Source: Cylindrospermopsis raciborskii Cr2010 (GTDB lineage Bacteria; Cyanobacteriota; Cyanobacteriia; Cyanobacteriales; Nostocaceae). From it: a DNA stretch of 32,000 bases. The notes beneath the pieces were generated by a model. That model saw only the letters and a program-made list of their open reading frames with translations, was not told the origin of the DNA and did no database searches. This document shows, piece by piece, positions 4,231 through 31,945 of this stretch (position 1 is its first letter; every line of letters starts with the position of its first letter). Both the position numbers and the translations under genes were made by a program. The stretch covers positions 1,020,001-1,052,000 of the forward strand of contig NZ_CP065936.1 of the NCBI RefSeq assembly GCF_003367075.2, read 5' to 3'.

Positions 4231-4588
4231 TGCTTTTGATTTCTATGATGTGTTGATGAAGTCAATATTACAAGGTTAGGGTAAATATTTAGGGGAGATT
4301 TGGTGGAGAAATCGGGGAAAATGTCATCTTTTGGTAACAACATGGTTATTCCGTATTATTATTTATTCTAAACGTTTAGCACTCCTCCAAGATTTCCCAT
4401 AAGCCAAAGGTGAGATAAAGGATACTTTTGGTTGAGTTGAATTAGTTCCGGTGTTAACTCAAGGCGACGAATATTTGTTTGACCATGCTAGAATCATAAG
4501 CAGTCAGTTTATTTTAATTCTAGATGACCAATCAGTTTTATACGATAAAAGACAAGACCAAATAAATAAAGTTACAAGCGCAATTAAT

Positions 4589-4644
4589 TTGTCAACTTGT
4601 ATAGATTAATAATATATACTACACACACAATATTGTGGTATGAT
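4589..4644 (+). promoter_or_regulatory. candidate sigma70-type promoter (TTGTCA-N17/18-TATATA) followed by a perfect 12-bp palindrome, CACAATATTGTG
   Basis: TTGTCA at 4589-4594, TATATA at 4613-4618, palindrome at 4626-4637, about 35 nt upstream of the ATG at 4671. Found by eye only. Confidence 0.3.
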
Positions 4645-4670
4645 CGAAAGGTGAAACCTGGGGGAATATT

Positions 4671-4859
4671 ATGAACAGAGAACTAGAAGCTCAAGAGTCA
4701 AAAATTCAGGATGTACAAGCACCAATTACTGCTGCATCACCGGAAGTAAAACAGATAATAGAAAAAGTGTGTAGATTAGAAAAATCGCGACTGGCCAGAA
4801 AAAGCAAGGGTGCAGTTAATGAAGACATTTTAGCAATAATTAAAGAAGCGGTAAAATAA
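4671..4859 (+). CDS. 62-aa Lys/Glu-rich, probably helical small protein; first gene of the dnd-associated cassette
   Basis: ATG-initiated ORF ending 11 nt before the next start, co-directional with it. No recognisable motif. I vaguely recall a public family named 'DNA modification system-associated small protein' but cannot verify membership. Confidence 0.5.
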   Translation: MNRELEAQESKIQDVQAPITAASPEVKQIIEKVCRLEKSRLARKSKGAVNEDILAIIKEAVK

Positions 4860-4870
4860 GTAGTGTAGCA

Positions 4871-6940
4871 ATGAAACTAACTTCGATTAAATTTTGTAAT
4901 TTTCGTTCCTTTTATGGACAAACACCAGAAATTGCCATAGCAGGTGGAGAGTTTCAGAATACCACCATAATTCATGGTAATAATGGTGCGGGAAAAACCA
5001 GTTTATTAAATGGATTTACCTGGGTGCTATATGAAAAATTTACAGCTGCTTTCGCGGTGACAGAGCAGCTGGTTAATAAACGTGCGATTTCAGAAGTAGG
5101 AGAGGATCAAGCTGTAGAATGTTGGGTAGAAGTAGGTTGGGAACATGAAGGAGTTCGCTACCGGGCAAAACGTAACTGTCGGGTTTATAAAAATCCCACT
5201 AGTATTGATGCTACCAAAACTAAATTAACAATTCAAATTGTGGGGGATGATGGCAAGTGGTATTTTCCCATTGAACAACCGGAGGAAATAATCAATAATA
5301 TATTGCCTGTAAGTTTACATCAATACTTCTTTTTTGATGGAGAAAGAATAGAAGAAATTGTCCGCTCTGATAAAAAAGCTGAAATTGCTGAAGCCACGGA
5401 AATATTTTTAGGTGTTAAGGTAATTGATCTGGCGACAAAACATTTAAAGGAGGCTAAAAAAACTTTAGATAGTGAATTGGCAGCTATTGGAGATGCGGAA
5501 ACTAAACAATTATTAAAACAGCAAAGTAAACTAGAAAAAGAAATTAGTAAAATTTCCCAAAGACAAACGGAAATAGCTGAAGATTTAGAAAGTCAACAAG
5601 TTTTTAAAAAAGATATCAGCGCCAGATTGGTAGAATTAAGTTCAGTTAGGGATTTACAAGAAAGAAGGGAAAGGCTAGAAAATCAAAAACGCAATAATTA
5701 TGATGAATTAAAAAAAACTAAAGAGGGTTTGAAAAAAGCTATTTCCAAACAGGCATACACATTATTATTAAGTGAGACAACAGTTAAATTCAGACAGATT
5801 ATTGTTGCTTTTAAACAGCGCGGGCAATTAAAATCTGGTATTTCCAGAGAATTTGTCAGCGAACTGATGAAAAGTGGTAGGTGTATTTGTGGCGCAGAAT
5901 TAAAAGAAGGAGGGAATGGACATTTTCACGTTAAATCACTGTTGAGAAAAACCGGATCTTCTTCCGTGGAAGAAACTGCAATTAGAATGGGAGCGCAAAT
6001 AGATGATCTGGAAAAACAAGCTCAATTATTTTTAGAGATGATCAATCGAGAACAACAAAGAATCTATCAGTTAAAGACATCACTTTCTGACATAGAGATG
6101 AATTTAGATAGCATTGAGGAGATTTTGCGGAAAGACCCAAATGAAGACATTAGCGGTTTACAAAAGAGATTGGATGAAATAGAAGCAAGAATTGACGATT
6201 TAAATCGGGAGCAAGGAGCAAACCAAAAAGAAATTTCTCACCTCAATACAGAAATTGATATTGTAGTCAAACAAATTGCCAAGCAAAAACAAAATGAAGG
6301 AAGACAGATTTTGGCACAGCGTCGAATTATTGCTACCCAAGATGCTATTGACATATTAACTGAAGTGAAAAATAGACAAGAAAAGCAATTTAGATTGCAA
6401 TTAGAAAAAAGAGTGCAAGAAATATTCTCAGAAATTTCCGTTACACCATATATTCCCAAAATTAGCGAAAAATATGAACTGACCTTAGTAGAGAATACAA
6501 CCGGAATAGAAGCTGCTGTTGCAGCATCTACCGGGGAAAATCAAATTCTGAGTTTATCATTTATCGCCAGTATTATTGATAAAGTAAGGGAATGGAGTGA
6601 AAAGAAAAAAATCATGATGGTTCCCGATAGTAGTACCTTCCCCATAGTAATGGACTCACCCTTTGGCAGTTTAGATGCTAACTCTCGTCGTCATATTGCA
6701 CAAACCATTCCCAAGTTGGCAAATCAGTTAGTAGTGCTGGTGACTAAGACCCAATGGAGAGAGGAAGTTGAGTCCGAGATTATGGAGCGAATTGGTAAGG
6801 AATATGTGTTGACCTATTATTCTTCTAAAACCAACTGTGAAGAGGACTTTTTGCAAATAGGTAGGGAGAAGTATTACCTAACTCGTCAAAGTTCTAATGG
6901 TTTCGAGTACAGTGAAATTGTAGAAGTAGAAAGGAGTTAA
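4871..6940 (+). CDS. SMC/Rad50-like ABC ATPase, paralogue of DndD (second copy in the locus)
   Basis: Walker A HGNNGAGKTS. YFFFDGERIEEI matches DndD LFLFDGEQVKEL. A K/E/Q-rich coiled-coil region spans about aa 190-520. Signature STGENQILSLSF matches DndD SAGEKQLLAIAF. Walker B/D-loop FPIVMDSPFGSLD matches DndD LPVAIDTPLGRLD. Confidence 0.85.
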   Translation: MKLTSIKFCNFRSFYGQTPEIAIAGGEFQNTTIIHGNNGAGKTSLLNGFTWVLYEKFTAAFAVTEQLVNKRAISEVGEDQAVECWVEVGWEHEGVRYRAKRNCRVYKNPTSIDATKTKLTIQIVGDDGKWYFPIEQPEEIINNILPVSLHQYFFFDGERIEEIVRSDKKAEIAEATEIFLGVKVIDLATKHLKEAKKTLDSELAAIGDAETKQLLKQQSKLEKEISKISQRQTEIAEDLESQQVFKKDISARLVELSSVRDLQERRERLENQKRNNYDELKKTKEGLKKAISKQAYTLLLSETTVKFRQIIVAFKQRGQLKSGISREFVSELMKSGRCICGAELKEGGNGHFHVKSLLRKTGSSSVEETAIRMGAQIDDLEKQAQLFLEMINREQQRIYQLKTSLSDIEMNLDSIEEILRKDPNEDISGLQKRLDEIEARIDDLNREQGANQKEISHLNTEIDIVVKQIAKQKQNEGRQILAQRRIIATQDAIDILTEVKNRQEKQFRLQLEKRVQEIFSEISVTPYIPKISEKYELTLVENTTGIEAAVAASTGENQILSLSFIASIIDKVREWSEKKKIMMVPDSSTFPIVMDSPFGSLDANSRRHIAQTIPKLANQLVVLVTKTQWREEVESEIMERIGKEYVLTYYSSKTNCEEDFLQIGREKYYLTRQSSNGFEYSEIVEVERS

Positions 6941-6953
6941 TTTTTTTCTGGTT

Positions 6954-7427
6954 ATGGCTGAAACTAGTAGAATTAGAATTGCTGGGGATAAAGCCGATTT
7001 TGTCAAGGCTTTGGTTGCTAATGATGGGGCCCAGGGTCCCTTTCAGACCTTTGCTGATGTGATTGCTTTTGCTGCTGCTTTAGGTATTAAATATCAGAAG
7101 CGTATTCCATTTGAAGAAATCTCTAAAAGGGATCCTTCTCCCATCAGATTAGAGGTTTTTGCAACATCAGGATATGATGTGTTGATCAAATTACTGGCAA
7201 TTGTAGAAACGGAGAACATTCAACTTTTATCACCTAATAATGACGAAGAAGAAAAACAACGTAATCAAATTTTTGAAGAATATGCTAATGGAGGGTTAGA
7301 GATTTTAGAGACTCAAATCAGAGGATCCGTCGATTATACGGAGAGAATTCTATTGTTTTTACAGCGTGAACATCAAACAATTGATGGGGAAGATGGAGAA
7401 TTTGATCTCTCTAGATTTTTATCCTAG
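6954..7427 (+). CDS. 157-aa dnd-locus-associated protein of unknown function
   Basis: Starts 13 nt after the ATPase stop on the same strand. No catalytic motif is visible. It resembles my memory of the family annotated as 'dnd system-associated protein 4' (FADVIAFAAALG ... IFEEYANGGL), unverified. Confidence 0.55.
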   Translation: MAETSRIRIAGDKADFVKALVANDGAQGPFQTFADVIAFAAALGIKYQKRIPFEEISKRDPSPIRLEVFATSGYDVLIKLLAIVETENIQLLSPNNDEEEKQRNQIFEEYANGGLEILETQIRGSVDYTERILLFLQREHQTIDGEDGEFDLSRFLS

Positions 7428-7440
7428 TCTCCCCCATTTG

Positions 7441-7535
7441 TAATCTAAGTGGGTGATTGGAATTAAATATAAGATGAACGTAGAACGTAGGTTGGGTTGA
7501 AGTATGAAACCCAACACCCCCATGGGTTACCCTAC
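7441..7535. repeat. dispersed ~90-bp repeat, copy 1 (inverted relative to copy 2 at 31861-31945)
   Basis: The reverse complement aligns almost base-for-base with 31861-31945. It contains the hairpin GTTGGGTT-N9-AACCCAAC. Copy 1 carries an extra tandem 7-mer (aacgtag aacgtag). Confidence 0.85.
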
Positions 7536-7571
7536 CGCTAACCCATCCTACAAATAATTACGCCTCCCTAC

Positions 7572-9125
7572 TTATATGGATGGAAGTCCTACCTCTTGAG
7601 CACTAACCCAGTTCCCATCAAAGTCAATAGCACGATCTTCCGTGGTTCTAGCACTTGCTATTGCTTTGCGTAGTTCTGCAATTTCCATCTGGTCTTTGAT
7701 TTCTCCCAATAGATAAATTAATAATTTTACTGCCAATTCTTTTTTAGACACTTGAACCCGCTTTTTATTCGGATCATATAAAACTCCATACCATAGAGAA
7801 TTAGGAAACTCCATTTGACTAAAACCACCCTGAAGATCAAATTTTTGCAACTTTTTAAAAATGTTTTCTAATAAGAGACCATTTTTAAAAACTAAAATTC
7901 CTAAAGCTTCTGCTAAGGCAACTTGTGCCACAGGACGAAATAAAATATTGCCCTCACCACCAACTTTTTCAAAACTGAATCGCCGTAAAACAGTTGTATC
8001 TTCATGATCTAAAATCTTATAACTAGGGAGGGTGGCTAAATGGTCAAATAGCTGTTCAAATTCCCTAATTCCTTCTGCTAACTCGTCAGGGTCTGGACGC
8101 ATGGGAATCAATCCCTTAATTTGGGGTTGCCAATGGGGAAATTTGTATCCTAAATATTTAGTTGACATATCTTGTAAGGCTTGTAATGTGGTCAATACGG
8201 TGGAATTAGCTGCTACTGTGGCGCTGTTCCAGTTAATCCGAGGTTTCCGATTCTCTCTGTGCGCTAACAGGGGATGACTTACTGCTATTTTTCTGGCTAC
8301 AATTGCAAAACCATTATCTTCATTTAATTGGATCAGTTGACCTTTAGTCAAGGGGGTAGCCATTAAATTCACATGCACAAAAATTGATCTGACTCTCTGT
8401 TTGGCTTCTGAGTAGGTTTCTCCACTATTGACTGCACAAATAAATTCAATTCCAATTTTTTCCTGGGGTAATTGTTTGAGATAGTCAATATTAATCCTAT
8501 ATTGGTCTACCAACTCTGACAGATCTATATAACTATCAGTGGGGATTTTATCTCGGTTATATTTTGTTATTCTTCCATTTTCTAACAGTTCTAATAAACC
8601 CTGAACTCCCATTAATCTATGTTGACCGTCTAAAGCATAGATATTTACATCTTTTTCTGCTACATTCAATAAACCAATATGACCATTTGCATCTAAAGGG
8701 GTAAAATCAGTAGTTGCTTTTTTGGCGCGTCCCTCCCCACCCCATAATTCTGATTTTGCATCATTCGCCCAGGGTTGATTGATTACAACTAGTACTGGTG
8801 GAAACTTATGATTTCTATGTATAGTTAGATATTGTAATAATGAAGCTTGACGTGACCAATCTAAAGAACGCTGTTGAATCTGCTCAATACTATCCGCGTC
8901 AATTTCAATGTTGTCTGTAACCGGATTATATTTATTTTGCAATATCGGTAGAGTAGAAGCGAACTCAACCTTTTTTGCAAACCATTCCAAAGTAACTGAG
9001 CCTAGATAAGCGGTAACATCACCCATTTTCGTTTGTTGAACTATAATTTGAGATGGAAGTTGAGGGGGTTGACCTACTGGGTACTGAGGAAAAATGCTAC
9101 GGTTATCTTGAGGTATTTTTGCCAT
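7572..9125 (-). CDS. DGQHR-domain protein (DndB-like, ParB-fold family), 517 aa
   Basis: Literal DGQHR motif (IYALDGQHRLMG, aa 166-170, nt 8616-8630). Upstream QRSLDWSRQASLLQYL...FPPVLVV block, downstream FVHVNLMATPLTKGQLIQL block. Divergent from dndC. Confidence 0.85.
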   Translation of the reverse strand: MAKIPQDNRSIFPQYPVGQPPQLPSQIIVQQTKMGDVTAYLGSVTLEWFAKKVEFASTLPILQNKYNPVTDNIEIDADSIEQIQQRSLDWSRQASLLQYLTIHRNHKFPPVLVVINQPWANDAKSELWGGEGRAKKATTDFTPLDANGHIGLLNVAEKDVNIYALDGQHRLMGVQGLLELLENGRITKYNRDKIPTDSYIDLSELVDQYRINIDYLKQLPQEKIGIEFICAVNSGETYSEAKQRVRSIFVHVNLMATPLTKGQLIQLNEDNGFAIVARKIAVSHPLLAHRENRKPRINWNSATVAANSTVLTTLQALQDMSTKYLGYKFPHWQPQIKGLIPMRPDPDELAEGIREFEQLFDHLATLPSYKILDHEDTTVLRRFSFEKVGGEGNILFRPVAQVALAEALGILVFKNGLLLENIFKKLQKFDLQGGFSQMEFPNSLWYGVLYDPNKKRVQVSKKELAVKLLIYLLGEIKDQMEIAELRKAIASARTTEDRAIDFDGNWVSAQEVGLPSI

Positions 9126-9261
9126 GAAGTTAATTTTTTAAAAACTTAATTGGAGATTAGGTTGTCTATTTTGCCAAAATATTACATACTAGTACGAAAC
9201 TATAGTTGTCAATACTTTCTAGAAATTTCCCTTGTAAAGGTCTGATTTACATTCCCGACCT

Positions 9262-9358
9262 TGAATTCCCACAGAATTCATCGGTGAATTGATAAGATCA
9301 TCAGCAATTGTTTTCCCAATTATCCCTCCTAATTACAACAATTATCCCCAATTACAAC
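9262..9358. promoter_or_regulatory. candidate operator region in the DGQHR/dndC divergent spacer
   Basis: Perfect inverted repeat TGAATTC-ccaca-GAATTCA at 9262-9280, plus a third TGAATT at 9285-9290. Imperfect tandem unit aattatccc(n)aattacaac at 9318-9339 and 9340-9358, ending directly at the dndC ATG. Confidence 0.3.
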
Positions 9359-9359
9359 C

Positions 9360-11015
9360 ATGGTGACATCAGAAAGTAAAACCCCGCCGAATCGAACTGT
9401 AGCTGAGCTGGTGGAGAATATTCTAGTTCTTACGAAAGAAATTCAGCAATTATACTGTTTGGACGACATACCCTGGGTGGTTGGTTATTCTGGAGGAAAA
9501 GACAGTACGGCAATCTTACAACTGATTTGGAATGCTATTTCTGATTTACCACCAGAAAAAAGAACTAAGACCATTCACGTCATTACCACAGACACAGGCG
9601 TAGAGAATCCTTATGTTTCCGCTTGGGTACGTGCTTCTCATGAAAATATCAAAAAAGCTGCCCAAGAACAGCAAGTTCCCATGCAAGCTCACCTTTTACA
9701 ACCAGAAACAAAGGAGACATATTGGGTGGGTCTAATTGGTAAGGGATATCCTGCTCCCCGTCAAAAATTTCGCTGGTGTACTGAACGCCTAAAAATCAGC
9801 CCATCTAACCGTTTTATTCGTGATATGGTTAGGGAAAGTGGAGAAACAATCCTGGTTCTGGGTATTCGCAAGACCGAAAGTAAAAATCGTGCTGCTACCA
9901 TGAAAAAAATGGAGGCTAAAAGACTGCGCGATCGCCTGAGTCCCAATGGCAATTTACCCAATTCCCTGGTTTACAGTCCCATAGAAGATTGGCGGACTGA
10001 TGAAGTTTGGCTATATTTGATGCAGTGGGATAATCCTTGGGGGCACAGTAATAAGGATCTATTTGTGATGTATAGGCAATCAACGGAAGACAATGAATGC
10101 CCATTGGTTGTTGACACATCTACTCCTAGTTGTGGCAGTTCTCGTTTTGGTTGTTGGGTTTGTACCCTAGTTGATCGTGATGTATCCCTGAGTGCAATGA
10201 TTCAAAATGATCAAGAAAAAGAGTGGATGCAACCAATAGTTGAGTTTAGGAAGGAATTAGATATTGAAAATGACAGAGAAAAAAGGGATTTTCGTCGCAT
10301 TTGGGGGGAAGTTCAATTATTTGAACGGAACAGAAATGGGGAAATGTCGGTTGAACCCATACCTGGGCCATATACAAAATATTGGCGAGAATACTGGTTA
10401 AGAAAATTATTAACAGCACAAAAAGAAATGAGAGAGAATGCACCAGAAAACATGGCCAATATCACCCTAATCTCAATGGAAGAACTGAGTGAAATTCGCC
10501 GTATCTGGCTGGAAGAAAAACACGAATTTGACGACAGTTTACCCCAAATATATGAACAAGTGACAGGAGAAAAATTTAAAGATTCTCGACCTGGCGCAGA
10601 TTATAGTCTATTAGGTGGGGATGAGTGGGAGGTGTTAGAACAAATCTGTGCGGGTAACTCTATGGAATTAGAGCTGATGGCAAAGTTACTAGACACGGAA
10701 AGACAATTCAAGAAAAAAACCCGCCGAGTAGGGATTTTTGAAACTTTAGAAAAGTGCTTTGAAACTAGTTCCCGTTCCCAACAAGAGGCTATTGATTATG
10801 CTCATTTTAAAAGAGATCTACGTCTAGCAGCTAGTGAAGGCAATGTAGCAACAATTCGTCAGGCATTTAAACAATTAGATATACCACGGGTGCAAGAGCA
10901 AAATAACACTGAGTATAACACTGAAAATAAGACCGAAGATAAAAAACCCCTAGAGCAACCACTGAGTTTTGCGAGCATGAAATATAGAAAGTATGAATAT
11001 AAGCAAGAAGAATAG
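9360..11015 (+). CDS. dndC: DNA phosphorothioation sulfurtransferase DndC (PAPS-reductase-like, PP-loop)
   Basis: PP-loop SGGKDS (nt 9489-9506). Cys cluster CPLVVDTSTPSCGSSRFGCWVCT typical of the DndC Fe-S site. 551 aa, followed by dndD and dndE. Confidence 0.9.
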   Translation: MVTSESKTPPNRTVAELVENILVLTKEIQQLYCLDDIPWVVGYSGGKDSTAILQLIWNAISDLPPEKRTKTIHVITTDTGVENPYVSAWVRASHENIKKAAQEQQVPMQAHLLQPETKETYWVGLIGKGYPAPRQKFRWCTERLKISPSNRFIRDMVRESGETILVLGIRKTESKNRAATMKKMEAKRLRDRLSPNGNLPNSLVYSPIEDWRTDEVWLYLMQWDNPWGHSNKDLFVMYRQSTEDNECPLVVDTSTPSCGSSRFGCWVCTLVDRDVSLSAMIQNDQEKEWMQPIVEFRKELDIENDREKRDFRRIWGEVQLFERNRNGEMSVEPIPGPYTKYWREYWLRKLLTAQKEMRENAPENMANITLISMEELSEIRRIWLEEKHEFDDSLPQIYEQVTGEKFKDSRPGADYSLLGGDEWEVLEQICAGNSMELELMAKLLDTERQFKKKTRRVGIFETLEKCFETSSRSQQEAIDYAHFKRDLRLAASEGNVATIRQAFKQLDIPRVQEQNNTEYNTENKTEDKKPLEQPLSFASMKYRKYEYKQEE

Positions 11016-11063
11016 ATTCTTAGATTATTAGTTTGCCATCTTGATTTTTGAACTGCTGGAATT

Positions 11064-13118
11064 ATGATTTTTTTAGAACTTGTACTGCAAAACTTTGGTC
11101 CTTATGCTGGTAAGCAAGTGATTAATTTGGATACCAGAATCGATCAGAATAACATTCGTCCAATTATTCTTTTGGGGGGGATGAACGGAGGAGGAAAAAC
11201 CACCCTGATGGATGCTATTCGCTTGGCATTATATGGAGCAAGGGCCCAATGTTCCACCAGGGGAAATTTAAGTTATGGTGACTTTCTCACCCAGTGTGTG
11301 AATAACAAAGCTGACCCGATTAATAAAACCAGAATCGAGTTGGTTTTTGAACACATTGAAGATGATAAACCCGTGAGGTATCGGGTAGTGAGAACTTGGG
11401 AAAAAAACCCCAAGGATGGTAAAGATTCCCTGGGAATTTTGGGGGATGACGAAACCTGGCCCCAGTCTTTAGCCAATATCTGGGACGAATACATAGAAAA
11501 TATATTGCCCTTGGGTATTTCTAATTTATTTTTATTTGATGGTGAGCAGGTCAAGGAACTAGCAGAACAGGAAGTTCCTCCTCCCATAGTGGTGGATGCA
11601 ATTAATGGACTCTTGGGATTGGAGTTAGTAGATAAATTGTCCTTAGATTTGGAAATATTAGTCAATCGCAAAAAAAAGGAAAATGCTGATGATCAGGATT
11701 TGGCTAAGTTGGAAGAATTGGAAACCCGTTTGCATAAACAAATGGAGCAAAAAAATTCTCAAAAATCTCAGTTGCAAGACCTAGAGGAGCAGGTAAAAAA
11801 TTTAAAAGTTAAATATGAGGAAGCCCTAAATAAGTATATATCAGAAGGTGGCAAAATTGCCGGGGAACGCAGTCAACTGGATAGGGAGAGGGAAACTCAG
11901 GTTGGCAAGGTGGAAAATCTACGGAAAACTTTATGCGAATTGGCTGAGGGTGTGTTACCTTTACAGTTAATTAGTAATTTATTATCTCAAGTCCAGATCC
12001 AGGGTGAAAAAGAGTTAAGACTTCAACAAATACAGTTACAAAATCAAGTGGCTAGAGATATTTTAATTACTAGAGATAAAAGATTGGTTTCCTTCCTCCA
12101 TCAATTGAATCTAAAACTGGAAACAATCACCAGTATTGAAAATTTCCTGCTTCAGGATATTGATAGTTTATATATGGATTTATCTACTAAATTGTATGAT
12201 AATAAAACAGTTAAAGCCAATGTGAAAGCCAATAATGCCAATAATTATGAAGGGTCTTTCTTACATGCAGACGAAGAAACTTTAAGTTCTTTAGATCGTC
12301 TGATCTATGGCTTGCCAACAGTCCAAAATAACGCCAAAAACCACCTGCTCGAACTGCGCAATTGTCTAGAATTAATTGTCAGCCTAGATAGGCAAATTCA
12401 AGCTGCTGCTCCACCAGAAGCATACATCAAACTACAAAAAATCCGAGAACTGGCTGAAAAAGAATGGAGTCGAGCAAATACCAATTTGGAAATACTCAAT
12501 CGTCAGTTCATCAATTTAACTACCACCATTGATAAAACCAAACGAGAGTTGAATAGTTATACCGACAAAAATCTTAAATATCAAAGTAATCAACATTTGA
12601 TTGCTTCAGTCCATAGAGTACAAGAAAATTTAAAGTTGTTTAAAGAAAAACTAACTTTAAGGAAATTAAATAAATTAGAAGAAGAAGTAAAAAACTGTTT
12701 TTTGTATTTACTACATAAATCATATTTGGTCTATAGAGTGGGAATTGATGCTAAAAGTTTCCAACTCTCATTGTATGATCTCCACGGTAAATTAGTCCCT
12801 AAACATAGACTATCCGCAGGAGAAAAACAACTCTTGGCGATCGCCTTTTTATGGGGTTTAGCAAAAGTGTCTGGAAAACAACTACCGGTGGCAATTGACA
12901 CCCCCCTAGGAAGACTAGATTCATCCCATAGAAATAACCTACTGGAAAGATATTTCCCCACAGCAAGCCATCAAGTAATTTTACTATCCACAGATACAGA
13001 AATAGCCAGGAAAGAAATAGCAATACTCAGAGAACATCAGGCGATCGCACGAGAATATATTTTAGAGTATGATTCAGGAAAAAGAGAAACAACCATCAAA
13101 GAGGGATATTTTTGGTAA
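11064..13118 (+). CDS. dndD: DNA sulfur modification protein DndD (SMC-like ATPase)
   Basis: Walker A GGMNGGGKTT, LFLFDGEQVKEL, long coiled coil, signature SAGEKQLLAIAFLWGL, Walker B/D-loop LPVAIDTPLGRLD. Lies between dndC and dndE. Confidence 0.9.
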   Translation: MIFLELVLQNFGPYAGKQVINLDTRIDQNNIRPIILLGGMNGGGKTTLMDAIRLALYGARAQCSTRGNLSYGDFLTQCVNNKADPINKTRIELVFEHIEDDKPVRYRVVRTWEKNPKDGKDSLGILGDDETWPQSLANIWDEYIENILPLGISNLFLFDGEQVKELAEQEVPPPIVVDAINGLLGLELVDKLSLDLEILVNRKKKENADDQDLAKLEELETRLHKQMEQKNSQKSQLQDLEEQVKNLKVKYEEALNKYISEGGKIAGERSQLDRERETQVGKVENLRKTLCELAEGVLPLQLISNLLSQVQIQGEKELRLQQIQLQNQVARDILITRDKRLVSFLHQLNLKLETITSIENFLLQDIDSLYMDLSTKLYDNKTVKANVKANNANNYEGSFLHADEETLSSLDRLIYGLPTVQNNAKNHLLELRNCLELIVSLDRQIQAAAPPEAYIKLQKIRELAEKEWSRANTNLEILNRQFINLTTTIDKTKRELNSYTDKNLKYQSNQHLIASVHRVQENLKLFKEKLTLRKLNKLEEEVKNCFLYLLHKSYLVYRVGIDAKSFQLSLYDLHGKLVPKHRLSAGEKQLLAIAFLWGLAKVSGKQLPVAIDTPLGRLDSSHRNNLLERYFPTASHQVILLSTDTEIARKEIAILREHQAIAREYILEYDSGKRETTIKEGYFW

Positions 13119-13148
13119 TTAGGTAAGAGAGTTAATATCATACCAGGT

Positions 13149-13550
13149 ATGAAAATGGAATCACCCATAGAAAGAATTAAACTATCGCAGACGGCCAAGG
13201 ATCAACTGTTGAAATTAAAACGTGTCACCCGTATAGAACAATGGAATATACTATGTCGGTGGGCGTTTTGTCGTTCTCTAGCTGAAACCAGTCCCCCATC
13301 ACCCATACCCATACCCCAAGACAGTAATGTAGAGCTGACGTGGAAAGTATTTGGGGGAGAAATAGCAGATATTTTGCTGTTAGCACTAAAACAACGGTGT
13401 AATAACGACGGTTTAGGAACAGACTCAGAAACCCTAATCACCCAATTTCGCTTGCACCTACATAGAGGTATAGGATATTTAGCAGGGGATCCAAATATTA
13501 AGAGTATTGAAGATTTCATAGATCTGACTAGCAAGAATGTGAAAAGCTAG
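13149..13550 (+). CDS. dndE: DNA sulfur modification protein DndE
   Basis: 133 aa. N-terminal IKLSQTAKDQLLKLKRVTRIEQWNILCRWAFCRSL matches the remembered DndE pattern. It is the terminal gene of dndCDE, 30 nt after dndD. Confidence 0.8.
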   Translation: MKMESPIERIKLSQTAKDQLLKLKRVTRIEQWNILCRWAFCRSLAETSPPSPIPIPQDSNVELTWKVFGGEIADILLLALKQRCNNDGLGTDSETLITQFRLHLHRGIGYLAGDPNIKSIEDFIDLTSKNVKS

Positions 13551-24689: not shown

Positions 24690-24724
24690 AATCACAAAAA
24701 CCAACTGGTGGTAGTAACTAATAA

Positions 24725-25257
24725 TTTTGGGAGGAGATACATATTGTATACATTTGGGACATGCTTCCAACAACGGATATACAAAAACCTGAGGAGGACG
24801 GTTCAATGGTGACATACTCCACACACTCCCTTACAGGTGAGAGTGGGCTTCTCAACGACTCTTCTTCAAGCCAGCATTCTCGGCTTTGTTTGAAAGTATG
24901 GTGATGAACTGTCCCCCCATCGTTAATACTTTTAGCCAATCTTGTTTTAGCAAGTCCTTTTATATTTAATTTTTCAACAGCTACTACGTCATACTTTTTG
25001 AGTAGATTATTAGCTGTTTTGAATTGGAAATCTTTTCTAGTATCAACAACTTTCTTGTGTAGAATACCCAGTTTTTTAATCGCTTTTTTACGGCGATTAG
25101 AACCTCTCTTCCGACGAGAGACACGACGTTGCGCAGATTTTAACTTGCGTTCAGCTTGGCGTAGAAACTTAGGTGCGGCAATTCTTTCATCTTCATGGAT
25201 GTGACCAGTTAGTACAAGAGTAAGATGGTACTTTTTGCAACTCTTTTTTATCATCAA
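24725..25257 (-). pseudogene. tnpB: decayed IS200/IS605-family tnpB (OrfB) relic
   Basis: [31 protein letters not shown]...[42 protein letters not shown] is the TnpB central/RuvC-II region. After a frameshift at the G-run the +1 frame reads [20 protein letters not shown]-stop. A further remnant, [11 protein letters not shown] (zinc-finger region), lies in a third frame. The N-terminal ~170 aa and the C-terminus are missing. Confidence 0.7.
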
Positions 25258-31860: not shown

Positions 31861-31945
31861 TAGGTACCCGTGCGGGCGTTGGGTTTCATACTTCAACCCA
31901 ACCTACGTTCATCTTATATTTAACTCCACCCACCCACTTAAGACT
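31861..31945. repeat. dispersed ~90-bp repeat, copy 2, in the nrtC-nrtD spacer
   Basis: Near-identical to the reverse complement of 7441-7535. Contains the hairpin GTTGGGTT-tcatacttc-AACCCAAC. Confidence 0.85.

What the first reader, a model, noticed from the sequence alone, without database searches (positions are those of the whole stretch)
4671..7427. Tightly coupled three-gene cassette as a candidate PT-linked defence or sensing module with no obvious nuclease
Seen in sequence: three co-directional ORFs are separated by only 11 and 13 nt, behind a 440-bp AT-rich spacer with a promoter-like element. The ATPase has complete Walker A, signature and Walker B/D-loop motifs and a long coiled coil. 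None of the three proteins shows an HNH, PD-(D/E)xK, PLD, helicase or methyltransferase motif that I can recognise. Inference: if this is the restriction or effector arm of the PT system, it probably works non-nucleolytically, or recruits a nuclease encoded elsewhere. Alternatively it is a second modification-type complex. The 62-aa and 157-aa proteins resemble families I recall only as dnd-associated with unknown function, so this part of the locus is functionally undescribed.
Basis: partly seen in the sequence, partly recalled or inferred. Interest (0 to 1): 0.85.

Follow-up and report, generated by a model that had tools for sequence, protein, structure and literature searches.

The report
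Known PbeBCD phosphorothioate defence core
The three tightly packed genes are the cyanobacterial copy of an already described phosphorothioate-linked antiviral module (PbeB-PbeC-PbeD), so the finding is real but not new.

Summary
Three co-directional ORFs of 62, 689 and 157 aa lie at 4671-7427, separated by 11 and 13 nt, behind a 440-bp spacer. No nuclease, helicase or methylase domain was found in any of them.

The reading "functionally undescribed" does not hold. The 689-aa protein matches the PADLOC PbeC model over its full length (1097 bits) and has the CxC motif at the tip of its coiled coil. The 157-aa protein is TIGR04062, "DNA phosphorothioation-associated protein 4"; it occupies the PbeD / clade-2 DndE position. 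The 62-aa protein sits in the PbeB position and is conserved in 38 relatives.

The window comes from Cylindrospermopsis raciborskii. The supplementary tables of Xiong et al. 2019 already list PbeC at this locus in C. raciborskii strains, with a PbeA-type hit about 22 kb upstream, outside the window.

Next door are a large DGQHR (DndB-type) gene and dndCDE. Relatives usually carry a helicase-only PbeA beside the trio. Several lineages have unlinked that helicase but kept it. The trio is under purifying selection (dN/dS about 0.1), including within the species.

Verdict: an ordinary member of a known system. The only unusual points are its compactness and the absence of an adjacent helicase or nuclease.

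The parts
4231..4670 (+). 440-nt spacer upstream of the trio, the likely promoter region. Strain-variable DNA begins at about 4334.
   Evidence: GC is 0.332. TGG-TATGAT at 4636-4644 is conserved in R. brookii D9 while the rest of the spacer is full of indels. Homology to a strain that lacks the island (L094) ends at window 4333. The consensus promoter scan is not above chance.
4671..4859 (+). 62-aa small protein: PbeB position, the 'SP' of CxC-anchored systems
   Evidence: No hit in Pfam, NCBIfam or PADLOC. Orthologues sit immediately upstream of the CxC ATPase in 38 distinct cyanobacterial loci, with a conserved core of about 50 aa. dN/dS is 0.12-0.15. PbeB is 66 aa in H. jeotgali (PMC6459918).
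4871..6940 (+). 689-aa CxC-type coiled-coil ABC ATPase (PbeC)
   Evidence: PADLOC PbeC PDLC02753 scores 1097 bits over the full length, plus more than 20 other PbeC models. TIGR03185 DndD scores only 144 bits against a cutoff of 245.85. CxC lies at 338-340, in the break between helices 182-317 and 366-521. ATPase motifs are invariant. dN/dS is 0.08-0.10.
6954..7427 (+). 157-aa DNA phosphorothioation-associated protein 4 (PbeD position; clade-2 DndE-like)
   Evidence: TIGR04062 scores 187.8 bits against a cutoff of 74.25. Precomputed Pfam is PF27807. There are 446 representative clusters. The model shows two strand-helix-helix units plus long C-terminal helices. The only geometrically sensible PDB match is DndE 4LRV, with target-normalised TM-score 0.59-0.62. 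3 of 90 family members hit PADLOC PbeD.
7441..7571 (.). Dispersed repeat of about 100-130 nt, inserted between the convergent ends of the 157-aa gene and the DGQHR gene. It is not part of the system.
   Evidence: Absent at this site in R. brookii D9. Other copies are at window 31866-31940 and three places in L094.
7572..9125 (-). 517-aa DGQHR-domain protein, the large cyanobacterial DndB-type protein, divergent from dndC
   Evidence: TIGR03187 scores 170 bits and Pfam DndB 35 bits. Orthologues of about 530 aa lie next to dndC in 40 of 51 loci.
9360..11015 (+). DndC
   Evidence: TIGR03183 scores 699 bits.
11064..13118 (+). DndD, the canonical paralogue of the 689-aa ATPase; it has no CxC
   Evidence: TIGR03185 scores 650.7 bits. 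No CxC motif.
13149..13550 (+). DndE (clade 1)
   Evidence: TIGR03184 scores 132 bits and Pfam DndE 149 bits.

Best explanation
The cassette is the PbeB-PbeC-PbeD core of the phosphorothioate-associated Pbe system, also called the CxC-ABC-ATPase/DndE-anchored system. In Cylindrospermopsis raciborskii it sits beside its PT-writing partner: a DGQHR/DndB-type gene plus dndCDE.

Shown here:
- The identity of PbeC.
- Family membership of the 157-aa protein (TIGR04062).
- Conserved synteny of the three genes with the small protein.
- Linkage to dnd genes in most relatives.
- Purifying selection on all three genes.

Inferred from the literature and from the anatomy:
- Two PbeC molecules join through the CxC zinc hook and through their ATPase heads, forming a Rad50/SMC-like DNA clamp.
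- The DndE-like 157-aa protein gives the clamp its DNA contact.
- The 62-aa protein is a regulatory subunit.
- The complex tells host DNA (PT-marked by DndCDE plus a cysteine desulfurase encoded elsewhere) from unmarked invading DNA, and blocks replication of the latter.

The usual fourth component, the SF2 helicase PbeA, is not in the window. In Nostocales it is a helicase-only protein with no HKD nuclease part. It is often unlinked from the trio yet retained. A published table places a PbeA-type hit about 22 kb upstream in this species. The action is therefore most likely non-nucleolytic, with the helicase supplied in trans.
For: Identity of the three proteins:
- PbeC: full-length PADLOC match at 1097 bits, below the DndD cutoff.
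- CxC at 338-340, between the two coiled-coil arms.
- 157-aa protein: TIGR04062 and PF27807.
- Its model shows two strand-helix-helix units, and DndE 4LRV is the only sensible PDB match.
- The family touches PADLOC PbeD.

Context in relatives:
- Of 51 loci with at least 5 kb downstream, 40 carry the large DGQHR gene and 38 carry dndC.
- Of 40 loci with at least 2 kb upstream, 25 carry a PbeA-like helicase. It matches PADLOC PbeA at 552 bits but only over model positions 241-681, and Pfam finds only ResIII and Helicase_C.
- The helicase is kept next to lexA but unlinked from the trio in Dolichospermum DL01, in S. kisseleviana NIES-73 (about 63 kb away) and in Sphaerospermopsis SIO1G1 (on another contig).

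Selection:
- dN/dS is 0.08-0.27.
- Within C. raciborskii, PbeC has 17 non-synonymous against 40 synonymous differences.

Literature:
- All four pbe genes are needed; the pbeA deletion retains low-level resistance; activity depends on PT; viral DNA is not degraded (PMC6459918).
- Reassignment of the proteins as SP, CxC ATPase and DndE cognate (PMC10853773).
- C. raciborskii strains are listed with PbeC and a PbeA hit.
Against: - No PbeA anywhere in the 32-kb window.
- I could not read the place where the published table puts the PbeA hit, about 17.5-18.2 kb left of the window. The furthest locus fetched reaches only about -8.8 kb.
- No Cylindrospermopsis or Raphidiopsis helicase appears among the best 120 relatives (all at least 81% identical), nor in 10 clusters inspected. 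The helicase may therefore be divergent, broken or a different protein.
- The 157-aa and 62-aa proteins do not themselves hit PADLOC PbeD or any PbeB model.
- The DndE relationship is weak in my tests: hhalign P = 0.03 with probability 1.7%, and Foldseek E above 1.
- PMC10853773 argues that Pbe systems do cleave DNA, through the HKD domain of PbeA.
- No experiment exists for any cyanobacterial Pbe system.
Confidence: 0.8

Rival explanations
1. It is a second modification-type complex. The CxC ATPase and its DndE-like partner are paralogues of DndD/DndE. They would work with DndC to set the site choice or frequency of PT, rather than acting in defence.
For: The pair is paralogous to DndD/DndE. 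dndCDE is adjacent here and in 38 of 51 loci. No nuclease is present. PMC10853773 proposes functional cooperation between DndDE-centred and CxC-DndE-centred systems.
Against: In H. jeotgali, constructs with each pbe gene deleted were still described as expressing PT modification, while virus protection was lost (PMC6459918). The trio stands without dnd or DGQHR genes within the flank in 11 of 51 loci, such as L006, L016 and L024. Xiong et al. found 320 of 553 PbeAC pairs without dndCD nearby.
Confidence: 0.1
2. It is a decaying remnant. After losing the adjacent helicase, the HNH genes and the second DndB, the trio is no longer functional in this small-genome lineage.
For: This is the most stripped-down version among 40 comparable loci: no helicase, HNH, Uma2 or second DndB. 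One strain whose flanks are 99.5% identical lacks the whole island (L094). R. brookii D9 shows 1-nt indels that split the DGQHR gene and dndD and shorten PbeC.
Against: dN/dS is about 0.1 for PbeC and 0.03 for PbeD within C. raciborskii. Full-length 689-aa proteins occur in at least 15 sequence variants from many strains. The D9 indels lie in or next to short homopolymer runs and could be sequencing errors.
Confidence: 0.07
3. It is an abortive-infection or toxin-like module. The small protein holds the ATPase complex in check until a phage factor removes it, and the complex then harms the host's own DNA transactions.
For: PMC10853773 proposes the small protein as a negative regulator released by viral triggers. 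The small protein's gene is tightly coupled to the ATPase gene: a 4-nt overlap in most relatives and an 11-nt gap here.
Against: There is no toxic effector domain in the window. The small protein is strongly conserved across Nostocales rather than fast-evolving. In H. jeotgali, protection depended on PT, and PT-modified virus escaped; that points to self/non-self discrimination.
Confidence: 0.03

Closest known systems
PbeABCD of Haloterrigena jeotgali A29 (Xiong et al. 2019, PMC6459918); the PADLOC 'pbe' system
   Same: The gene order is the same: small protein, coiled-coil ATPase, then a protein of about 150 aa. Sizes are 62/689/157 aa here; PbeB is 66 aa and PbeD 152 aa there. PbeC gives a full-length model match. 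The cassette lies next to dndCDE. No nuclease motif is recognisable in the three proteins.
   Different: No PbeA is adjacent here. In Nostocales relatives PbeA is helicase-only: it aligns to positions 241-681 of the PADLOC model. The dnd module here has a large DGQHR (DndB-type) gene and no dndA. No experimental data exist for cyanobacteria.
CxC-type ABC ATPase / clade-2 DndE / small-protein systems (PMC10853773 and that group's earlier work)
   Same: The CxC motif is at the coiled-coil apex and is absent from the neighbouring DndD. A cognate protein of about 150 aa has two strand-helix-helix units and a long C-terminal helix. A small upstream protein is present. The system sits in tandem with a DndD-DndE system.
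   Different: [quoted passage not shown] The small protein is well conserved in cyanobacteria, not rapidly evolving. There is no cytosine methylase or MTaX1 gene.
DndD-DndE of the PT modification machinery (TIGR03185 / TIGR03184)
   Same: Both pair a coiled-coil ABC ATPase with a small DNA-binding partner. The 689-aa protein aligns end to end with the DndD model.
   Different: The score (144 bits) is below the DndD cutoff (245.85). The CxC hook is present only in the 689-aa protein. The 157-aa protein does not hit DndE models at sequence level.
DndFGH and SspE/SspFGH PT-sensing restriction modules
   Same: All are PT-dependent discrimination of self from invader DNA, encoded next to PT-writing genes.
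   Different: The proteins are unrelated. DndFGH and SspE nick or cleave DNA. No dndFGH-like gene is in the window, and Jian et al. report dndFGH as absent from Nostocales (PMC8569181).

Membership tests
PbeABCD (Xiong 2019 / PADLOC pbe) | PbeC: a full-length homologue of the coiled-coil ATPase | tested here: met
   PADLOC PDLC02753 scores 1097 bits over residues 1-649 against model positions 1-648. More than 20 further PbeC models also match.
PbeABCD (Xiong 2019 / PADLOC pbe) | PbeD: a protein of about 150 aa encoded directly downstream of PbeC | tested here: inconclusive
   Position and size fit: 157 aa, 13 nt downstream. The window protein itself has no PADLOC hit. 3 of 90 members of its family hit PADLOC PbeD PDLC02758, with best E-value 8.6e-4. 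I could not obtain the H. jeotgali sequence for a direct comparison.
PbeABCD (Xiong 2019 / PADLOC pbe) | PbeB: a protein of about 60 aa encoded directly upstream of PbeC | tested here: met
   A 62-aa ORF lies 11 nt upstream. It is conserved in this position in 38 cyanobacterial loci with dN/dS 0.12-0.15. This is a positional and size criterion only; no sequence model exists.
PbeABCD (Xiong 2019 / PADLOC pbe) | PbeA: an SF2 helicase (with HKD domain in most systems) in the same cassette | tested here: not met
   There is no helicase or HKD ORF, and no remnant of one, in the window. The published table lists a PbeA-type hit 22.4-23.1 kb upstream of PbeC in C. raciborskii strains. That place lies outside the window and I could not read it.
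PbeABCD (Xiong 2019 / PADLOC pbe) | Neighbouring PT modification genes dndCDE(A) | tested here: met
   DndC, DndD and DndE score above the NCBIfam cutoffs at 9360-13550. No dndA/iscS is in the window.
PbeABCD (Xiong 2019 / PADLOC pbe) | PT-dependent inhibition of virus replication without DNA degradation | not testable with these tools
   This is an experimental property, shown only for H. jeotgali genes expressed in Natrinema (PMC6459918).
CxC-type ABC ATPase / clade-2 DndE system (PMC10853773) | ABC ATPase head motifs flanking a coiled-coil insert of about 400 residues | tested here: met
   Walker A at 36-44, signature at 553-558, Walker B/D-loop at 590-602. Helical arms span 182-317 and 366-521 with pLDDT mostly 65-92.
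CxC-type ABC ATPase / clade-2 DndE system (PMC10853773) | CxC motif (Zn hook) at the coiled-coil apex, absent from DndD | tested here: met
   C338-I-C340 is invariant in 33 homologues. It lies in the non-helical break between the two arms. There is no CxC in the window's DndD. Zinc binding itself was not tested.
CxC-type ABC ATPase / clade-2 DndE system (PMC10853773) | Cognate DndE-fold partner: two RHH (ribbon-helix-helix) repeats and a C-terminal helix of at least 19 residues | tested here: inconclusive
   The model (pLDDT 74.8) has E6-9/H11-20/H33-46 and E62-65/H66-71/H75-86, then H97-122. Foldseek gives DndE 4LRV with target-normalised TM-score 0.59-0.62, but E above 1. hhalign against DndE is collinear, but P = 0.03. 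There are no sequence-level hits to Pfam DndE.
CxC-type ABC ATPase / clade-2 DndE system (PMC10853773) | Small, mostly disordered, rapidly evolving protein encoded upstream | tested here: inconclusive
   A small protein is present. In Nostocales it is not fast-evolving: about 50 aa are conserved across 38 orthologues, at 52-80% identity to the window's protein outside Cylindrospermopsis/Raphidiopsis. Disorder was not modelled.
DndD (TIGR03185) | Score above the curated equivalog cutoff | tested here: not met
   144 bits against a cutoff of 245.85. The neighbouring true DndD scores 650.7 bits.
SMC / Rad50 / SbcC | Full-length match above the family cutoff, with a hinge or CxxC hook | tested here: not met
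   Only partial matches of 18-36 bits, against cutoffs of about 480-1090.

The most novel reading that the evidence does not exclude
Nostocales would carry a nuclease-free variant of the Pbe system. Its PbeA is a bare SF2 helicase that can be separated from PbeBCD by tens of kilobases and still be retained. In C. raciborskii, PbeBCD would work with no dedicated nuclease at all, having also lost the HNH / SBD-HNH genes and the second DndB. If so, the conserved SP-CxC-DndE core would itself be the PT-sensing, replication-blocking machine, and nucleases would be optional add-ons.
Probability: 0.25. Interest if true: 0.5.

Novelty: already known. Interest (0 to 1): 0.2.

Why it matters
It matters little as a discovery. 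The system, its components and even this species' PbeC are already in the literature and in annotation resources.

Three modest points have some value:

- **A natural minimal version.** This locus has only PbeB, PbeC and PbeD next to DndB-type and DndCDE genes. There is no helicase or nuclease in the neighbourhood, it is still under purifying selection, and sister strains lack the island. That makes C. raciborskii a convenient natural comparison for an open question: does Pbe act by cleavage (PMC10853773) or without it (PMC6459918)?
- **A gap in a published claim.** Jian et al. (PMC8569181) state that PT restriction systems are absent from cyanobacteria, but they looked only for dndFGH. That statement overlooks the widespread Pbe module in Nostocales.
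- **Bloom ecology.** Phage defence in this bloom-forming, toxin-producing cyanobacterium is ecologically relevant.

Tried and rejected
- **Helicase remnant in the spacer or window.** tblastn with the Funiculus PbeA-like helicase found nothing.
- **Reaching the reported PbeA hit about 18 kb left of the window.** The first look-up failed because I chose the wrong start codon. The second reached only about -8.8 kb.
- **Looking for a C. raciborskii helicase by name.** None appears among the best 120 relatives or in 10 clusters. This is not conclusive.
- **Sequence-level link of the 157-aa family to DndE.** A profile search of PDB sequences gave only a chance hit to shikimate dehydrogenase. A Pfam scan of 90 members gave no DndE hit. 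Profile-profile comparison was marginal.
- **AlphaFold model of PbeC.** The ATPase heads came out poorly (pLDDT 53), so only the coiled-coil arms were used.
- **Readings rejected.** SMC/Rad50/SbcC and true DndD fail on score cutoffs. DndFGH is rejected because no such genes are present.
- **Promoter claim.** The consensus scan is not above chance.
Full report
**Observation**

They are separated by 11 and 13 nt. A 440-nt spacer (4231-4670) lies upstream, with GC 0.332 against 0.392 for the window.

The 689-aa protein has:
- Walker A G36NNGAGKTS;
- signature S553TGENQ;
- Walker B/D-loop ending in D595 and D602, all invariant in 33 homologues;
- two long helical arms, 182-317 and 366-521.

Pfam, NCBIfam and PADLOC find no nuclease, helicase or methyltransferase domain in any of the three proteins. 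The generic promoter scan is not above chance: 25 sites against 17.9 +/- 4.4 expected. A TGG-TATGAT motif at 4636-4644 is nevertheless conserved in Raphidiopsis brookii while the rest of the spacer is riddled with indels.

**Source organism and setting**

The 689-aa protein is 100% identical to proteins of Cylindrospermopsis (Raphidiopsis) raciborskii.

The cassette is the left part of an island that runs from about 4334 to 13550. Downstream of the cassette lie:
- a convergent 517-aa DGQHR-domain gene (7572-9125, minus strand; TIGR03187);
- dndC (9360-11015), dndD (11064-13118) and dndE (13149-13550), all above NCBIfam cutoffs.

Everything else in the window is housekeeping: an ABC transporter, ampG, metH, nirA, nrt genes and so on.

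A strain whose flanks are 99.5% identical (L094, GCA_036409495.1) lacks the whole island and carries STAND-type NTPase genes there instead. Homology ends at window 4333.

**Identity of the three proteins**

The 689-aa protein:
- It matches PADLOC PbeC PDLC02753 at 1097 bits over the full model, and more than 20 other PbeC models.
- It reaches only 144 bits on TIGR03185 DndD, whose cutoff is 245.85. The neighbouring DndD scores 650.7 bits.
- It carries C338-I-C340, invariant in homologues, in the non-helical break between the two coiled-coil arms. The window's DndD has no CxC.
- This is the signature of the 'CxC-type ABC ATPase', which PMC10853773 equates with PbeC.

The 157-aa protein:
- It is TIGR04062, 'DNA phosphorothioation-associated protein 4' (187.8 bits, cutoff 74.25). 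It carries precomputed Pfam PF27807.
- The family has 446 representative clusters at 50% identity, nearly all about 150 aa long.
- PMC10853773 calls the partner of the CxC ATPase a clade-2 DndE, and says this is PbeD.
- My own tests of the DndE relationship are concordant but weak. The AlphaFold model (pLDDT 74.8, pTM 0.76) shows two strand-helix-helix units followed by a 26-residue helix.
- The only PDB matches with a sensible superposition are DndE 4LRV chains (target-normalised TM-score 0.59-0.62, rmsd about 5 Å), but with E above 1.
- hhalign against a cyanobacterial DndE alignment is collinear over 131 columns with P = 0.03.
- 3 of 90 family members touch PADLOC PbeD.
- Plain profile searches find nothing.

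The 62-aa protein:
- It has no family hit.
- It occupies the PbeB / 'small protein' position.
- It has orthologues directly upstream of the ATPase in 38 cyanobacterial loci, with a conserved core of about 50 residues.
- It is under purifying selection, with dN/dS 0.12-0.15.

**What is known about the system**

Xiong et al. (PMC6459918) showed the following for H. jeotgali dndCDEA-pbeABCD:
- It gives about 10^4-fold protection against virus SNJ1.
- Deleting any of the four pbe genes impairs protection. Deleting pbeB (66 aa) or pbeD (152 aa) abolishes it; the pbeA deletion leaves low-level resistance.
- Protection depends on PT.
- Viral DNA is not degraded, but its replication is blocked.

PMC10853773 re-annotated the components and argued that the HKD nuclease domain of PbeA implies cleavage.

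Xiong et al.'s Supplementary Data list C. raciborskii C03, C04, C07 and CS-505 with PbeC 'existing'. In C03, PbeC is at 140081-142027 and dndC at 144520-145965, a spacing of 4.44 kb against 4.49 kb between the gene starts here. The same table lists a PbeA hit at 117006-117677, which is 22.4-23.1 kb upstream of PbeC. The locus was therefore already catalogued.

**Comparative survey**

I annotated 98 loci from genomes and metagenomes by BLAST against the window's proteins and a few references. The usual Nostocales layout is:

lexA - PbeA-like helicase (about 490 aa) - small protein - CxC ATPase - (inserted Uma2 or SLH genes) - 157-aa protein, then on the opposite strand (a second DndB of about 400 aa and/or an HNH gene) and the large DGQHR gene, then dndC-dndD-dndE.

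The helicase:
- NCBI names it 'DNA phosphorothioation system restriction enzyme'.
- It matches PADLOC PbeA at 552 bits, but only over model positions 241-681.
- Pfam finds only ResIII and Helicase_C, so it lacks the N-terminal (HKD) part.

Counts:
- Of 40 loci with at least 2 kb upstream of the small protein, 25 have the helicase and 15 do not.
- Of 51 loci with at least 5 kb downstream, 40 have the large DGQHR gene and 38 have dndC.

Where the helicase is missing from the locus, it is still in the genome:
- next to lexA in Dolichospermum DL01;
- about 63 kb away and inverted in S. kisseleviana NIES-73;
- on another contig in Sphaerospermopsis SIO1G1.

For C. raciborskii I could not read the reported site. 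No Cylindrospermopsis helicase showed up among the best 120 relatives or in ten clusters. Its presence therefore rests on the published table alone.

**What is particular here**

The window's version is the most compact found:
- The gap from the ATPase to the 157-aa gene is 13 nt, against 70-4900 nt in other genera.
- It has no helicase, no HNH or SBD-HNH, no Uma2 and no second DndB.

It is not decaying. dN/dS is 0.08-0.10 for PbeC and 0.03-0.27 for the 157-aa protein. Within the species, PbeC has 17 non-synonymous against 40 synonymous differences. Full-length proteins occur in many strains.

**Mechanism**

The identity and context are shown. The rest is inference from the family assignments and from the haloarchaeal genetics:
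- a Zn-hook-linked PbeC dimer forms an ATP-driven DNA clamp;
- the DndE-like protein supplies DNA binding;
- the small protein regulates the complex;
- the complex distinguishes PT-marked host DNA from unmarked invader DNA and halts replication of the latter;
- the helicase is probably supplied in trans, and no dedicated nuclease takes part.

Rivals are ranked lower, for the reasons given in their entries: a second modification complex, a decaying remnant, and an abortive-infection module.

**Verdict**

This is an ordinary, already catalogued member of the Pbe / CxC-DndE system.

Noticed in passing
window 4334-13550; L094 1-7235: The whole pbe-dnd island is strain-variable. A genome whose flanks are 99.5% identical (GCA_036409495.1) lacks it and has large AAA_16/NACHT/TPR (STAND-type) genes at that place instead. 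Homology to the window ends at 4333.
   Followed up: partly
window 7441-7571 and 31866-31940; L094 5121-5214, 6849-6968, 14526-14580: A dispersed repeat of about 100-130 nt with a predicted hairpin (-24 kcal/mol) sits between the convergent ends of the 157-aa gene and the DGQHR gene. It is absent at this site in R. brookii D9. It looks like a small MITE-type element.
   Followed up: partly
L002 (Raphidiopsis brookii D9); window-equivalent positions 6868, 8456, 11791: Single-base indels shorten PbeC to 669 aa and split the DGQHR gene and dndD in two. They lie in or beside short homopolymer runs, so they may be real decay or sequencing errors.
   Followed up: partly
L090 13672-14595 (Sphaerospermopsis torques-reginae); also L004, L065, L066 and others: In several relatives a 307-aa protein with a ScoMcrA-type sulfur-binding domain fused to HNH (PF26340 + HNH_2) sits between the 157-aa gene and the DGQHR gene. 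That is a PT-reading nuclease embedded in the Pbe-Dnd locus. It is absent in C. raciborskii.
   Followed up: no
L037, L040, L046, L064, L069-L072 and others: 16 of 55 loci with at least 5 kb upstream have the 157-aa gene but no CxC ATPase within that flank. Either there are very large insertions between the two genes, or the 157-aa gene can occur without its ATPase.
   Followed up: no
L090, L092, L097, L098: The PbeA-like helicase is consistently encoded right after lexA (argF-lexA-helicase), whether or not the rest of the Pbe genes follow. This hints at SOS-linked expression.
   Followed up: no
window 24718-25257 (-): A 179-aa ORF has only a partial OrfB_IS605 (TnpB-type) domain, and it overlaps the end of the aldehyde-dehydrogenase-like ORF. 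It is probably a transposase fragment.
   Followed up: no
PMC8569181: Jian et al. state that PT restriction systems are absent from cyanobacteria, but only dndFGH was considered. The Pbe module is widespread in Nostocales. One of their 'DndD clades' may in fact be PbeC.
   Followed up: no
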